Virus record (IMG/VR): IMGVR_UViG_3300018412_000010
Direction: 5' to 3' (one strand)
DNA: 64,000 nt
Source: a virus
The notes under the pieces: generated by a model
What the model was told of the DNA's origin: nothing
Databases searched by the model: none
Seen by the model: the letters and a program-made list of their open reading frames with translations, nothing else
In this document: piece by piece, positions 9,470 to 11,577 of the stretch
Layout of the letters: each line of letters starts with the position of its first letter
Numbering within the stretch: the first letter of the stretch is position 1
Translations under genes and position numbers: made by a program

Positions 9470-10042
9470 TCATAATTTACTTTTTTTATTATACCGCATC
9501 ATTAACGCAACGCATAATATAGACATGCTTATAGCGCTTGATATTAAATTACCGATATAATTATTCATGTTAACACATAAAAAACTAATAAAATAAAATA
9601 AGATAAGTGTATTTATATATTTACTAACAAACCATTCCTTGGTTTTACCATTCATATTTTCTTTTGATATAATTGGAACTTTTTTAATTATGTATATTCC
9701 AAATACCATACTTATAAACAATAGAATGTTTACTTGACACATTATGTATTTAGAGATTATAGCCGTAGATAATATCAACGGAATACTAATACATAAACAT
9801 TTATCAAGAGTTGTAGAATGATATCCACCACTATATAACCGTAATACATTTAACACAATTAGAACAATTATCATTTGTGGTATGCATTCAAATATATATG
9901 CAAGACCAAAAAAGAATATGTTGGATATAATAAAAAAAGTAAGAAATATGACGTTATCTTCAAAATCATCATAATTTCTTACTTTAAATAGCTTTGTTTT
10001 AATTAATGCGTCAATAATCCGCATTGATATTTTTATAATCAT
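9470..10042 (-). CDS. agrB: AgrB-family peptide-processing membrane endopeptidase/cyclase
   Basis: Multi-TM; LRLYSGGYHSTTLDKC retains conserved Arg, GG and the catalytic His/Cys pair 7 residues apart. Confidence 0.85.
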   Translation of the reverse strand: MIIKISMRIIDALIKTKLFKVRNYDDFEDNVIFLTFFIISNIFFFGLAYIFECIPQMIIVLIVLNVLRLYSGGYHSTTLDKCLCISIPLILSTAIISKYIMCQVNILLFISMVFGIYIIKKVPIISKENMNGKTKEWFVSKYINTLILFYFISFLCVNMNNYIGNLISSAISMSILCVALMMRYNKKSKL

Positions 10043-10078
10043 TAATTTGACCTTTCTTTATCCTAAAATTTGCAAAAT

Positions 10079-10170
10079 TAAAAGGCTGATTTTATCTGCT
10101 AAATGACACCTTACAAACGGCTAAATTTCAACGTTTGTATATGCCAAATTGGACAAAATCAACCTTTTTA
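10079..10170. repeat. palindromic element, copy 1
   Basis: Core TACAAACG...AAATTTCAACGTTTGTA (10112-10139) flanked by inverted AAAAGGCTGATTTT / AAAATCAACCTTTT; shares AAATTTCAACGTTT with 43552-43565. Confidence 0.6.
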
Positions 10171-10199
10171 ATTTTTTGATGGTATTTCACATCAATTTT

Positions 10200-10224
10200 G
10201 TAGATAATTATGTAAATTATCTAC
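10200..10224 (-). terminator. hairpin after the small peptide ORF
   Basis: GTAGATAATT-N5-AATTATCTAC perfect 10-bp stem; weak U-tract. Confidence 0.5.
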
Positions 10225-10274
10225 TATTTTGTTCTAGTATCACCAAGAACCCAAAACTTTTCACAATTTCTCAC
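10224..10274 (-). CDS. 16-aa peptide MRNCEKFWVLGDTRTK, candidate AgrD-like precursor
   Basis: Not in ORF track. GGAGGT RBS 9 nt before GTG 10274, TAG 10226-10224; Cys plus aromatic core; directly upstream of agrB. Confidence 0.6.
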   Translation of the reverse strand: MRNCEKFWVLGDTRTK

Positions 10275-10752
10275 TATATCTACACCTCCCTTTATTTAAG
10301 TTTATTTTACAAAAATAAATAATTATGAATTCCATTATTTTAAATGGGATGCACATCATTAATTCTTTTGTTCCAAATTTTGTTGAAAATACATCTATAT
10401 TAAATAGTGTATTTAACGATATGGCTATAATAATTTCAATAACCATTACTAAGCATCCGACTTTTACGACGGACATAATTGCTTTTTTAAGTTTTATATT
10501 AAATACTACTCCAAGTAATAATCCAGAATATAATATGAATATTATTTGAAATACCAATCCAAGCCATGATATAAAAGTATATAACACGGCATTAATTATA
10601 GAAATACCAAAAAATGATAATATAAATTTCCTATAATTCTTTTCTAAGTTATTATCTAATATAAAATATGTTAAAATTATTAATCCATCAAATACTGATG
10701 AAAAAATAAACATTGTTAAAATATTGTAAATGATGTTCATACATACACACAC
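10261..10752 (-). CDS. ~5-TM membrane protein resembling an isolated AgrC/VirS-type sensor domain
   Basis: Almost entirely hydrophobic helices, no HisKA/HATPase region; adjacent to agrB. Confidence 0.5.
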   Translation of the reverse strand: MCVCMNIIYNILTMFIFSSVFDGLIILTYFILDNNLEKNYRKFILSFFGISIINAVLYTFISWLGLVFQIIFILYSGLLLGVVFNIKLKKAIMSVVKVGCLVMVIEIIIAISLNTLFNIDVFSTKFGTKELMMCIPFKIMEFIIIYFCKINLNKGRCRYSEKL

Positions 10753-10757
10753 AATCC

Positions 10758-11126
10758 CTATCTTTTTATTCTTTTTTCTTCTATATTCATAATTTCCTCT
10801 AATGCTTCATACATAACATTTTCCCCAAAAAATCTTATCCGAGCATTATTTTTATCTTTTTTTGATATATATTTTACGTTTTTTGTAGCTTTTGCTTCAA
10901 ATAATAAGTTATAGCACATAAGTTCTGAATTTATTTGAATCAAATAACTAATTCCCAATTTTATTATAACACTATAATCTCCAAATCCATCGTTAATAAA
11001 GTGATAGTTAGATTCTTTAATGCCAAAGTGGTCAAAAAGTTTAATGAAATAATCTTCATTGTTCTTTATAGAATTTCTCTTTAACCATAGGGAAATTTGT
11101 AAGTCTTTGTAATTAAAATCTCCCAA
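10758..11126 (-). CDS. hypothetical soluble protein of the agr-like cassette
   Basis: AAGGAG RBS, TTG start, 122 aa. Confidence 0.6.
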   Translation of the reverse strand: MGDFNYKDLQISLWLKRNSIKNNEDYFIKLFDHFGIKESNYHFINDGFGDYSVIIKLGISYLIQINSELMCYNLLFEAKATKNVKYISKKDKNNARIRFFGENVMYEALEEIMNIEEKRIKR

Positions 11127-11130
11127 GCTA

Positions 11131-11508
11131 TCACTCCTTCTTATCTAAAACAATCTTATTCGTAATATTACCGCATTTAATTAACTGGTCAAATTGACAC
11201 TCTGTTTGATTTAAATGCACGTTATTCAACTTAATCATATCATTAAGCATAGATTCTATTGTTGCTATTTTTTCTTCTTTCTCAACTATCGTTTTAATAA
11301 TTTTCCTATTATCTATAATGAAGTAAAACAGAATAAGTATTAAAAATAATACTATTAAACTGAACACTATAAAAAATCCAAACATATTTTGTTTAAAAAT
11401 AAGTTCTGCCCTGTTATAAAATTTTATAATATAATACAACAAGGATGATATTACAACAATAGAACCTATGATTGCTGGAATTGTCACGTATTTACCAAAT
11501 CTACCCAT
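11131..11508 (-). CDS. 2-TM membrane protein with C-terminal coiled coil
   Basis: AAAGGAG upstream; likely start MGRFGK at 11508; two hydrophobic helices. Confidence 0.65.
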   Translation of the reverse strand: MGRFGKYVTIPAIIGSIVVISSLLYYIIKFYNRAELIFKQNMFGFFIVFSLIVLFLILILFYFIIDNRKIIKTIVEKEEKIATIESMLNDMIKLNNVHLNQTECQFDQLIKCGNITNKIVLDKKE

Positions 11509-11548
11509 ATGACATATCTCCTTTCTATAATATTTCTTTGTATAATAT

Positions 11549-11577
11549 ATTATATCATAGATAAGGTATTTTGTCAA
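11549..11577 (-). promoter_or_regulatory. sigma-A promoter for the agr-like cassette
   Basis: TTGACA (11577-11572), 17 bp, TG-A-TATAAT (11554-11549). Confidence 0.8.

What the first reader, a model, noticed from the sequence alone, without database searches (positions are those of the whole stretch)
9470..11577. Kinase-less agr-like peptide-signalling cassette beside the lysis genes
Seen: its own consensus sigma-A promoter (11549-11577) precedes a 2-TM coiled-coil protein, a 122-aa soluble protein, a ~5-TM protein, a 16-aa Cys peptide and an AgrB with intact R/GG/H/C residues. The cassette lies between holin/endolysin and an XhlA-like gene. Known: canonical agr needs the AgrC kinase and AgrA regulator; agrBDC genes have been described in C. 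difficile phage phiCDHM1. Here neither an HATPase nor a receiver domain is recognisable. Inference: either a non-canonical receptor (5-TM sensor + 2-TM transducer + small effector) for phage-phage communication controlling lysis/lysogeny, or a decoy/jammer of host agr signalling.
Basis: partly seen in the sequence, partly recalled or inferred. Interest (0 to 1): 0.8.

Follow-up and report, generated by a model that had tools for sequence, protein, structure and literature searches.

The report
Kinase-free agr-like peptide cassette in phage
A large uncultured phage carries a conserved, self-promoted operon that should make a small ring-shaped signal peptide with the enzyme AgrB, next to a receptor-like membrane protein that has no kinase, so it may be an undescribed, phosphorylation-free way for phages to use peptide signals.

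Summary
On the minus strand a perfect sigma-A promoter precedes five ORFs. They encode a 2-TM protein, a 122-aa soluble protein, a 5-TM protein, a 16-codon Cys peptide with a strong ribosome-binding site, and AgrB. AgrB scores above the Pfam cut-off and keeps the four residues needed for S. aureus AgrB activity at the same spacing.

This is not a decaying host locus. The same promoter, gene order and mini-peptide recur in three other uncultured phage contigs, one a 99%-complete 349-kb phage with no kinase, receiver or LytTR domain anywhere. Against one relative, the cassette proteins are 49-57% identical while the phage backbone is only 22-54% identical.

The peptides share a W-hydrophobic-hydrophobic-G-D motif and a basic tail. 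Two have Cys and one has Ser upstream of the Trp, and none has a long leader. The 5-TM protein belongs to a small stand-alone, metagenome-only family and resembles the AgrC sensor domain, weakly by profile and better by predicted structure. The other two proteins have no known relatives.

Best reading: a phage-owned, AgrB-made cyclic peptide plus a kinase-free receptor or decoy set. Peptide production is well supported. How the peptide is sensed is inferred.

This is a new variant of known phage-borne agr. The same scan noted other kinase-less phage agr cassettes on other DNA.

The parts
11549..11577 (-). Sigma-A type promoter, TTGACA-17-TATAAT with an extended -10 TG
   Evidence: It is the only 12/12 match in 8500-14500. 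An 11-12/12 promoter sits at the same place before the 2-TM gene in L001, L002 and L004.
11131..11508 (-). 2-TM membrane protein (125 aa) with a charged, Pro-free, probably helical cytoplasmic tail of about 60 aa
   Evidence: Two hydrophobic segments at residues 10-28 and 47-65. Homologues occupy the same position in L001 (53%), L002 (31%) and L004 (21%). No family match above any cut-off. Heptad enrichment is modest.
10758..11126 (-). Soluble 122-aa alpha/beta protein, helix-helix-six strands-helix, with loose CesT/YbjN-type chaperone likeness
   Evidence: AlphaFold pLDDT 82, pTM 0.75. No significant PDB match: Foldseek E >= 0.27, VIA Z <= 6.8. Atlas structure rows for CesT, YbjN and DUF2299 give TM 0.56-0.65. 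Only four clusters exist in 5.8 billion proteins, two of them with longest contigs of the same lengths as the AgrB relatives' contigs, so probably the same contigs.
10261..10740 (-). Stand-alone 5-TM protein (159 aa) resembling the sensor domain of AgrC-type kinases, with no DHp or ATPase part
   Evidence: Model pLDDT 88, five helices. The family has 19 clusters, all credible members 113-171 aa; the 10 clusters looked up are all from metagenomes; no Pfam match. Atlas structure TM 0.73, 0.78 and 0.64 to AgrC-type kinases or fragments. hhalign P 0.004-0.006 over about 132 collinear columns; only 1 of 210 shuffles reaches that score.
10224..10274 (-). 16-codon precursor peptide (mini-AgrD-like): Cys at position 4, then W-V-L-G-D and a basic tail
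   Evidence: GTG start with GGGAGG upstream. An in-frame stop seven codons before the start rules out a long leader. Homologous 16-17-codon ORFs with strong SD lie at the same place in L001 and L004, and a 26-codon one in L002. The stretch is an island of DNA conservation with synonymous differences.
10200..10224 (-). 10-bp hairpin starting in the peptide's stop codon, at the position of intrinsic-terminator-like hairpins in the relatives
   Evidence: The fold of 10100-10240 has z -3.7. L001 9950-9973, L002 3847-3872 and L004 6832-6855 are hairpin-plus-T-run terminators between the peptide gene and agrB. The window copy has no T-run, and the scan called no terminator there.
9470..10042 (-). 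AgrB-family membrane cysteine peptidase (190 aa)
   Evidence: PF04647, E 4e-17, 62.5 bits against cut-off 23. R68, G73, H75 and C82 have the same spacing as S. aureus R70, G75, H77 and C84 (PMC10196373). hhalign to phiCDHM1 AgrB gives 90% probability.

Best explanation
This is a self-contained accessory operon (a moron) of a large SPbeta-like phage of an anaerobic, low-GC Firmicute. It is a rewired, kinase-free agr module.

Proposed mechanism:
1. Host sigma-A RNA polymerase reads the consensus promoter. It transcribes the 2-TM gene, the soluble-protein gene, the 5-TM gene and the 16-codon peptide gene.
2. A hairpin after the peptide gene lets only part of the transcripts run on into agrB. In the relatives this hairpin is a true terminator-like structure. 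Precursor would therefore exceed enzyme.
3. AgrB cuts off the short basic tail near the conserved G-D. It closes a thiolactone between the new C-terminus and Cys4 (a lactone from Ser in the jumbo-phage relative). The predicted product is a ring of about 5-8 residues with a 3-residue N-terminal tail. No leader peptidase is needed, because the precursor has no leader.
4. The 5-TM protein is a stand-alone relative of the AgrC sensor domain and binds this peptide at the outer face of the membrane. It has no kinase, so it must act by protein contacts. The most likely partners are the co-conserved 2-TM protein and the small cytoplasmic chaperone-like protein.

Shown: the parts, their conservation and order, the AgrB residues, and the absence of phosphorelay domains. 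Inferred: cyclisation, ring size, export, peptide binding by the 5-TM protein, any signalling role of the other two proteins, and the output.
For: - **AgrB:** above the Pfam cut-off, with catalytic residues at the S. aureus spacing (PMC10196373).
- **Synteny:** the same promoter, four genes, mini-peptide and agrB occur in L001 (82-kb IMG/VR contig), L002 (4.5-kb metagenome contig) and L004 (349-kb, 99% complete IMG/VR phage).
- **Selection:** cassette proteins are 49-57% identical between the window and the L001 phage, while portal and head proteins are 22-31% and tail proteins 38-54%. The cassette also sits at a different place in that backbone.
- **Peptide pattern:** variable N-terminal part, Cys/Cys/Ser three to four residues before a conserved Trp, then two hydrophobic residues, G-D and a basic tail. 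This matches the agr logic of a variable signal and a conserved AgrB recognition tail with an acidic residue after the cut (PMC10196373 for D33/E34).
- **5-TM protein:** Atlas structural matches to AgrC-type kinase N-termini. The collinear hhalign match exceeds 209 of 210 shuffles that keep composition or topology.
- **No phosphorelay in a near-complete relative:** no HATPase_c_5, HATPase_c, Response_reg or LytTR in the 349-kb phage. None found in the window with my own HMMs either.
- **Lifestyle:** the terminase is 32% identical to SPbeta/phi3T, and both relatives carry tyrosine integrases. This fits a temperate phage that could profit from signalling.
Against: - No product, activity or phenotype has been measured.
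- S. aureus AgrD has a 24-25-aa amphipathic N-terminal leader (PMC10196373), which is reported to be needed for membrane targeting and AgrB processing (from my own knowledge, not verified here). These peptides have none.
- The tail is 5-8 basic residues, not 14-15 acidic/Pro-containing ones.
- In L002 the best peptide candidate has no Cys or Ser before the Trp, and its AgrB lacks the Arg and Gly-Gly. Ring closure is therefore not universal in this group.
- The AgrC likeness is weak at sequence level: hhalign probability is only 3-9%, and the signal depends on the phiCDHM1 subgroup. C. perfringens, P. sordellii, C. botulinum and R. albus kinases alone give nothing.
- The 2-TM and soluble proteins have no informative relatives, so their role is a guess.
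- The window hairpin lacks a T-run.
Confidence: 0.45

Rival explanations
1. Host quorum-sensing manipulation. The phage makes a peptide that mimics or blocks the host's own autoinducing peptide. The kinase-less AgrC-like protein acts as a decoy that soaks up host signal, or as a dominant-negative partner of the host AgrC dimer. Host agr-controlled traits are thereby reset during infection or lysogeny, and the phage itself does not sense anything.
For: The phage has no kinase or regulator of its own, so any transcriptional output would have to go through host proteins. This was proposed for phiCDHM1 (PMC3901668). The 5-TM protein resembles an AgrC sensor domain without an output domain. Cross-inhibition between agr groups is established knowledge.
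Against: It does not explain why two further proteins are strictly co-conserved in the same operon. The host and its agr system are unknown. No close AgrB relative occurs outside these phage-like contigs, so the module is not a recent copy of a host locus.
Confidence: 0.22
2. Allelopathy with immunity, as with sublancin of SPbeta. The AgrB-made cyclic peptide harms non-lysogens or competing phages' hosts. The 5-TM, 2-TM and soluble proteins provide export and self-protection.
For: The backbone is SPbeta-like, and SPbeta carries a peptide bacteriocin with immunity genes (own knowledge). Small polytopic membrane proteins next to a precursor gene are typical immunity or export factors. A terminator-like hairpin after the precursor gene, seen, is common in lantibiotic operons (own knowledge).
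Against: No AgrB-type product is known to be an antimicrobial. No ABC transporter or known immunity family was found. The structural likeness of the 5-TM protein is to sensor domains.
Confidence: 0.13
3. The small ORF is not the substrate. AgrB here processes another peptide, from the host or from elsewhere in the phage, or the cassette has a membrane function unrelated to peptide signals.
For: The ORF is only 16 codons, lacks the canonical leader, and could not be scanned against AgrD models. In L002 two overlapping candidates exist, and the better one lacks Cys or Ser.
Against: A strong ribosome-binding site, a fixed position between the 5-TM gene and agrB, a conserved W-x-x-G-D motif with synonymous codon differences, and a terminator right after it are seen across loci whose flanking proteins are only 21-58% identical.
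Confidence: 0.08
4. Decaying host agr locus with a truncated agrC, carried along by chance.
For: The cassette has low GC (26%) compared with the structural genes. A frameshifted fibre-like gene lies just upstream.
Against: All five ORFs are intact in four phages. The cassette is as conserved as, or more conserved than, the phage backbone. Every credible member of the 5-TM family is a stand-alone protein of 113-171 aa. An exhaustive HMMER search found no fused kinase form (the one 442-aa hit is low-complexity).
Confidence: 0.03

Closest known systems
agr3 cassette of Clostridioides difficile phage phiCDHM1 (agrC-agrB-agrD; PMC3901668; record HG531805)
   Same: It is phage-borne and lies next to the lysis genes. 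It has an AgrB peptidase and a short precursor with a Trp-containing core, and the phage has no AgrA. Its AgrB aligns to ours with 90% hhalign probability. Its AgrC N-terminus is the best sequence match of our 5-TM protein.
   Different: phiCDHM1 has a full 453-aa AgrC kinase with HATPase_c_5 and a 37-aa AgrD with a hydrophobic leader. Its gene order is C-B-D, and it has no 2-TM or soluble partner. Its genes are near-identical to host genes, whereas ours have no close cellular relatives.
Canonical agrBDCA quorum sensing of Staphylococcus aureus
   Same: AgrB has R70, G75, H77 and C84 equivalents. A Cys lies upstream of hydrophobic residues, and an acidic residue follows the presumed cut site. 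There is a polytopic membrane protein with an AgrC-sensor-like fold.
   Different: Ours has no leader on the precursor, a very short basic tail, no kinase, no AgrA and no RNAIII-type divergent promoter. The order is sensor-like gene, then peptide, then agrB. Two extra conserved genes are present.
Arbitrium (AimP/AimR/AimX) of SPbeta-like Bacillus phages such as phi3T
   Same: It is a phage-owned small-peptide system in large SPbeta-like temperate phages. Our terminase is 32% identical to theirs.
   Different: AimP is Sec-exported, cut to a linear hexapeptide and re-imported to a cytoplasmic TPR receptor (own knowledge). Here the peptide has no signal sequence, an AgrB enzyme is present, and the receptor candidate is a membrane protein. 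No homology was seen or tested.
Kinase-less agr-like cassettes of Brevibacillus/Paenibacillus phages (Abouo, Davies, Emery, mentioned in PMC3901668) and of uncultured gut phages, noted earlier in this scan
   Same: A membrane protein, a short precursor and AgrB occur without a kinase. In the gut-phage type the order is also membrane protein, then a peptide of about 17 aa, then AgrB (scan notes, not checked by me).
   Different: Those carry a bare LytTR protein or an HTH fused to a cut-down AgrB as the likely output. Here AgrB is full-length and unfused, no DNA-binding domain is recognisable, and the partners are a 2-TM protein and a chaperone-like protein. tblastn finds no similarity to any deposited phage.

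Membership tests
AgrB (Pfam PF04647) | Profile score above the curated cut-off | tested here: met
   62.5 bits against cut-off 23, E 4e-17. Relatives also pass: L002 33.2 bits, G001 46 bits and G002 69 bits.
AgrB (Pfam PF04647) | Residues required for peptidase activity in S. aureus (R70, G75, H77, C84; PMC10196373) | tested here: met
   R68, G73, H75 and C82 have identical spacing. They are invariant in the window, P0002, P0003 and L004 proteins. L002's AgrB keeps H and C but lacks R and GG.
AgrB (Pfam PF04647) | Cleaves and cyclises its precursor | not testable with these tools
   Needs expression and mass spectrometry.
AgrD precursor | N-terminal amphipathic leader of about 24 aa (PMC10196373) | tested here: not met
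   Only 3-5 residues precede the Cys or Ser. In-frame stops seven codons (window) and six codons (L004) upstream of the start rule out a long leader.
AgrD precursor | Cys or Ser nucleophile a few residues before a hydrophobic C-terminus of the signal | tested here: inconclusive
   Cys in the window and L001, Ser in L004, 3-4 residues before W-hydrophobic-hydrophobic. None in the best L002 candidate. Cut site and ring size are unknown.
AgrD precursor | Charged C-terminal tail of 14-15 aa starting with acidic residues needed for AgrB cleavage | tested here: inconclusive
   A conserved Asp follows the hydrophobic run in three of four loci, but the tail is only 5-8 residues and basic. The peptides are too short for the family-scan tools.
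AgrC (HPK10 sensor kinase) | Polytopic N-terminal sensor domain | tested here: inconclusive
   Atlas structure TM 0.73, 0.78 and 0.64 to AgrC-type kinases or fragments. hhalign P 0.004-0.006, probability 3-9%, above 209 of 210 shuffles. No signal with four other kinases taken singly. No solved structure matched.
AgrC (HPK10 sensor kinase) | DHp histidine box and HATPase_c_5 catalytic domain | tested here: not met
   No Pfam hit in any cassette protein. The 5-TM protein ends 13 residues after helix 5. The 2-TM and soluble proteins show no similarity to the AgrC cytoplasmic part. No kinase core in the window or in the 349-kb relative.
AgrA / LytTR response regulator | Receiver domain plus LytTR DNA-binding domain | tested here: not met
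   None in the cassette, none in the window with my own LytTR HMM (that HMM had no positive control), and none in G001 or G002.
XhlA (PF10779), claimed for the downstream neighbour 8935-9447 | Profile score above the curated cut-off | tested here: not met
   13.9 bits against cut-off 34.7, E 0.063. Only the general build (helical N-part, C-terminal hydrophobic anchor) is alike.
Arbitrium AimP | Sec signal peptide and a C-terminal hexapeptide, with an AimR receptor gene adjacent | tested here: not met
   By inspection, the 16-aa peptide has no signal peptide and none of the neighbours is a TPR protein. AimR was not searched for elsewhere.

The most novel reading that the evidence does not exclude
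A phosphorylation-free phage communication system. A leaderless 16-aa precursor is turned by AgrB directly into a mature cyclic pheromone. The pheromone is sensed by a stand-alone AgrC-type sensor domain. That sensor passes the signal by protein-protein contact through a 2-TM helical protein to a small chaperone-like cytoplasmic protein, which in turn controls a phage decision such as induction, lysis timing or superinfection. This would be a third architecture of phage peptide signalling beside arbitrium and kinase-bearing agr.
Probability: 0.3. Interest if true: 0.85.

Novelty: new variant of a known kind. Interest (0 to 1): 0.68.

Why it matters
Phage-borne agr genes are known mainly from phiCDHM1, which still has the kinase, and their function has never been shown.

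This cassette drops the whole phosphorelay and the precursor's leader, yet it is kept intact in distantly related large phages, including a jumbo phage. Three things would follow if it works as proposed:
- AgrB can make a finished signal from a minimal substrate. That would be useful for peptide engineering and for understanding what AgrB needs.
- AgrC-type sensor domains can work without a kinase.
- Large phages of anaerobes have their own peptide language distinct from arbitrium.

The operon is 2.1 kb with its own promoter, so it can be tested directly by cloning.

Tried and rejected
**Searches that found nothing**
- DNA and protein searches of 50,697 deposited phages with the region, AgrB, the 5-TM protein and the soluble protein: no match.
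- Single-protein scans of IMG/VR with AgrB, the 5-TM protein, P0012 and P0013: nothing.
- GTDB species genomes scanned with the soluble-protein alignment: nothing.
- PDB sequence search with the 5-TM and soluble-protein profiles: nothing meaningful.

The contigs of P0003/P0008 and of most 5-TM family members could therefore not be read.

**Fold searches without a usable answer**
- Both models against the PDB: no significant match. Foldseek E >= 0.27 and >= 2.1; VIA best Z 6.8 and 8.3, within the noise stated by the tool.

**Ideas rejected**
- 'Split AgrC', with the 2-TM tail as DHp and the soluble protein as a degenerate ATPase: hhalign P 0.24 and 0.63.
- A LytTR or HTH role for the soluble protein: no hit in any library, and my LytTR HMM found nothing.
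- The 442-aa hit P0023 as a fused kinase form: it is a low-complexity protein without kinase domains.
- The 20-codon ORF at 10190-10128: no ribosome-binding site, no Cys or Ser, not conserved.
- The 22-nt sequence shared after the fibre genes of L002 and L004 as a boundary of a mobile unit: absent from the window.
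Full report
**What is there.** All parts lie on the minus strand of 9470-11577.
- The promoter is a perfect TTGACA-17-TATAAT with an upstream TG at 11577-11549. It is the only 12/12 match in a 6-kb scan.
- Five ORFs follow:
  - a 2-TM protein, most likely starting at the ATG at 11508 (125 aa);
  - a 122-aa soluble protein with a TTG start just after the previous stop;
  - a 5-TM protein (159 aa from the ATG at 10740);
  - a 16-codon ORF at 10274-10224, with a GTG start eight bases after GGGAGG and a Cys at position 4;
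  - AgrB at 10042-9470, after a 181-nt spacer.
- AgrB matches Pfam PF04647 at 62.5 bits (cut-off 23).
- AgrB carries R68, G73, H75 and C82 at exactly the spacing of R70, G75, H77 and C84. Those residues are required for S. aureus AgrB activity (PMC10196373).
- The other three proteins match nothing above any cut-off in Pfam, PHROGs or NCBIfam.
They sit 1.9 kb upstream, with three genes in between.
- The 'XhlA-like' downstream gene is far below the Pfam cut-off.

**Context.** The window is phage DNA.
- It encodes a portal, a large terminase, virion proteins and an exonuclease.
- It also encodes an RNA ligase, anaerobic ribonucleotide reductase NrdD with its activase, and a dUTPase.
- GC content is 25-37%.
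- No whole genome is held. The AgrB sequence is recorded on contigs up to 169 kb.
- The terminase is 32% identical over 88% of its length to those of SPbeta, phi3T and relatives.
- The phage is therefore a distant SPbeta-like large phage of an anaerobic low-GC Firmicute. The host is unknown.

**Conservation.**
- *How rare the proteins are.* Among 5.8 billion proteins AgrB has only two other clusters, at 58% and 50% identity. The soluble protein has three others, two of them with longest contigs of the same lengths as the AgrB relatives' contigs, so probably the same contigs.
- *Loci that could be read.* There are three: L001 (IMG/VR, 82 kb), L002 (JGI metagenome, 4.5 kb) and L004 (IMG/VR, 349 kb, 99% complete by CheckV).
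- *Shared layout.* All three have the same order: consensus promoter, 2-TM gene, soluble-protein gene, 5-TM gene, short ORF, hairpin, agrB.
- *Identity to the window proteins.* It is 48-57% in L001, 25-31% in L002 and 21-39% in L004.
- *Comparison with the backbone.* Against the whole L001 record, the cassette proteins (49-57%) are better conserved than portal and head proteins (22-31%). They are as well conserved as, or better than, tail proteins (38-54%).
- *Position.* In that relative the cassette sits between the head and tail modules, not after the lysis genes. In every locus it lies beside tail-fibre genes.
- *Conclusion.* This is the behaviour of a selected, movable accessory module, not of decaying cargo.

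**The peptide.**
- L001 has a 17-codon ORF and L004 a 16-codon ORF at the same spot, each with a strong ribosome-binding site.
- All share W, two hydrophobic residues, G-D and a basic end. The part before the Trp varies.
- The window and L001 peptides have Cys four and three residues before the Trp. L004 has Ser four residues before it. Cys-to-Ser exchange is what distinguishes thiolactone from lactone signals in known agr systems (own knowledge).
- Codons differ synonymously, and the stretch is an island of DNA conservation.
- In-frame stops seven (window) and six (L004) codons upstream of the start exclude a long leader in the window and L004.
- The pattern follows agr logic: a variable signal, a conserved recognition tail, and an acidic residue after hydrophobic residues. 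In S. aureus, D33 and E34 after the cut site are essential (PMC10196373).
- The 24-aa amphipathic leader and the long acidic tail are missing.
- L002 is the exception. Its best candidate, chosen for its strong ribosome-binding site, has the W-F-F-G motif but no Cys or Ser. An overlapping 34-codon alternative exists. Its AgrB lacks the Arg and Gly-Gly while keeping His and Cys.
- So either ring closure is not obligatory in this group, or that copy is drifting.

**The 5-TM protein.**
- *Family.* An exhaustive HMMER search of 1.84 billion representatives found 19 clusters. All credible members are 113-171 aa. The 10 clusters whose sources I looked up come only from metagenomes, and the members scanned have no Pfam domains. 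It is therefore a stand-alone family, not a truncated kinase.
- *Model.* The AlphaFold model (pLDDT 88) has five helices. Charge distribution fits an N-out, C-in topology, by inspection.
- *PDB.* Nothing significant was found.
- *Atlas structure search.* It returned AgrC-type kinases at TM 0.73 over 148 residues. It also returned a 311-aa group at 0.78, an 'AgrC fragment' group at 0.64 and SpoIIGA at 0.58.
- *Directed profile test.* I compared the family with phiCDHM1-type AgrC N-termini. The alignment was collinear over about 132 columns, with score 23.5-24.9 and P 0.004-0.006.
- *Shuffle controls.* Block shuffles and within-block shuffles, which keep the helix pattern, averaged 12-13. Only 1 of 210 reached the real score.
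- *Limits.* hhalign probability stays below 10%. Four other clostridial kinases taken singly gave nothing.
- *Verdict.* I rate homology to the AgrC sensor domain as likely, about 60%, but not shown.

**The other two proteins.**
- The 2-TM protein has a short positively charged N-terminus, two helices, and a Pro-free, charged tail of about 60 aa with modest heptad enrichment.
- The soluble protein folds confidently (pLDDT 82) as two helices, six strands and one helix.
- Its matches are only of the generic frataxin, RWD or type-III-chaperone kind, with Z at most 6.8. The Atlas lists CesT, YbjN and DUF2299 groups at TM 0.56-0.65.
- Neither protein resembles the cytoplasmic part of AgrC.
- Their function is unknown. 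Their strict co-occurrence with the rest is the only evidence that they belong to it.

**Operon design.**
- In L001, L002 and L004 a hairpin followed by a T-run lies between the peptide gene and agrB.
- In the window a 10-bp AT-rich hairpin starts in the stop codon but has no T-run.
- No good promoter lies before agrB. agrB is therefore probably read by run-through, which gives more precursor than enzyme.
- The next gene in the window (8935-9447) starts 22 nt after agrB and may be co-transcribed. It is not conserved with the cassette.

**No phosphorelay.**
- The 99%-complete 349-kb relative has no HATPase_c_5, HATPase_c, Response_reg or LytTR match, and one AgrB.
- My own HMMs of kinase cores and LytTR domains find nothing in the window. 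The kinase-core HMM recovers phiCDHM1 AgrC as a positive control; the LytTR HMM had no positive control.
- Both relatives carry tyrosine integrases, one of them about 5 kb from the cassette in each. A temperate lifestyle is plausible but not shown for the window phage.

**How it most likely works.**
- *Production.* I rate production of an AgrB-processed, probably cyclic peptide from the mini-precursor at about 70%.
- *Receptor.* I rate the idea that the three accessory proteins form its kinase-free receptor at about 35-40%. Together these give 0.45 for the stated model as worded.
- *Rivals.* They are manipulation of host agr (decoy or jammer), a bacteriocin with immunity as in SPbeta's sublancin, a different AgrB substrate, and decay. 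The last is contradicted.

**Comparison with what is known.**
- Phage-borne agr genes without agrA are known from phiCDHM1. They are mentioned for Brevibacillus/Paenibacillus phages and for SPbeta-like phages (PMC3901668, PMC11945551).
- phiCDHM1 keeps a full kinase and a 37-aa precursor with a leader.
- Literature searches found no description of a kinase-free module with a leaderless precursor or with these partners.
- Earlier notes of this scan describe other kinase-less phage agr cassettes on other DNA, with a LytTR-only protein or an AgrB-HTH fusion as output. I did not check them. They suggest that this is one branch of a wider, undescribed group.
- I class the finding as a new variant of a known kind.

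**Limits.**
- No multimer modelling was possible.
- The host is unknown.
- Every functional statement beyond domain content and conservation is inference.

Noticed in passing
window 11600-12466 (minus strand): Just upstream of the cassette promoter, a fibre-like reading frame is split over three frames (12466-12350, 12357-12016, 12049-11777), with no single ORF over 113 codons. It may be a broken tail-fibre gene, a programmed shift or an assembly error.
   Followed up: no
window 12827-13195; L002 2044-2418; L004 5106-5474: A 122-124-aa protein with no family match is conserved upstream of the cassette in three of four loci. In L002 and L004 it follows a 51-56-aa single-TM protein; in the window it follows the holin. 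It may belong to a larger shared module.
   Followed up: partly
L002 1689-1710 and L004 4689-4710: The same 21-nt sequence (AACCCAATAAAATTAGCATTT) follows the stop of Mtd_N-type tail-fibre genes in two distantly related phages. This may be a diversity-generating-retroelement homing signal or a shared terminator. It is absent from the window.
   Followed up: partly
L002 3918-4481 and 3646-3796: This cassette copy has an AgrB that keeps His and Cys but lacks the Arg and Gly-Gly needed in S. aureus. Its best peptide candidate has no Cys or Ser, and a second 34-codon ORF with a Cys overlaps it in another frame.
   Followed up: partly
G001 66885-67403 and G002 292379-292891 (records of L001 and L004): In both relatives a tyrosine recombinase lies about 5 kb downstream of the cassette, next to tail-fibre genes. 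The jumbo phage has five such genes. They could be integrases or fibre-switching invertases.
   Followed up: no
window 57652-59658: The large terminase is 32% identical to that of SPbeta, phi3T and related Bacillus phages, which places this uncultured anaerobe phage as a distant relative of the arbitrium-using group.
   Followed up: partly
window 8935-9447: A 170-aa protein with a long helical, charged N-part and a C-terminal hydrophobic anchor starts 22 nt after agrB. It scores only weakly for XhlA and is not conserved with the cassette in the relatives.
   Followed up: partly
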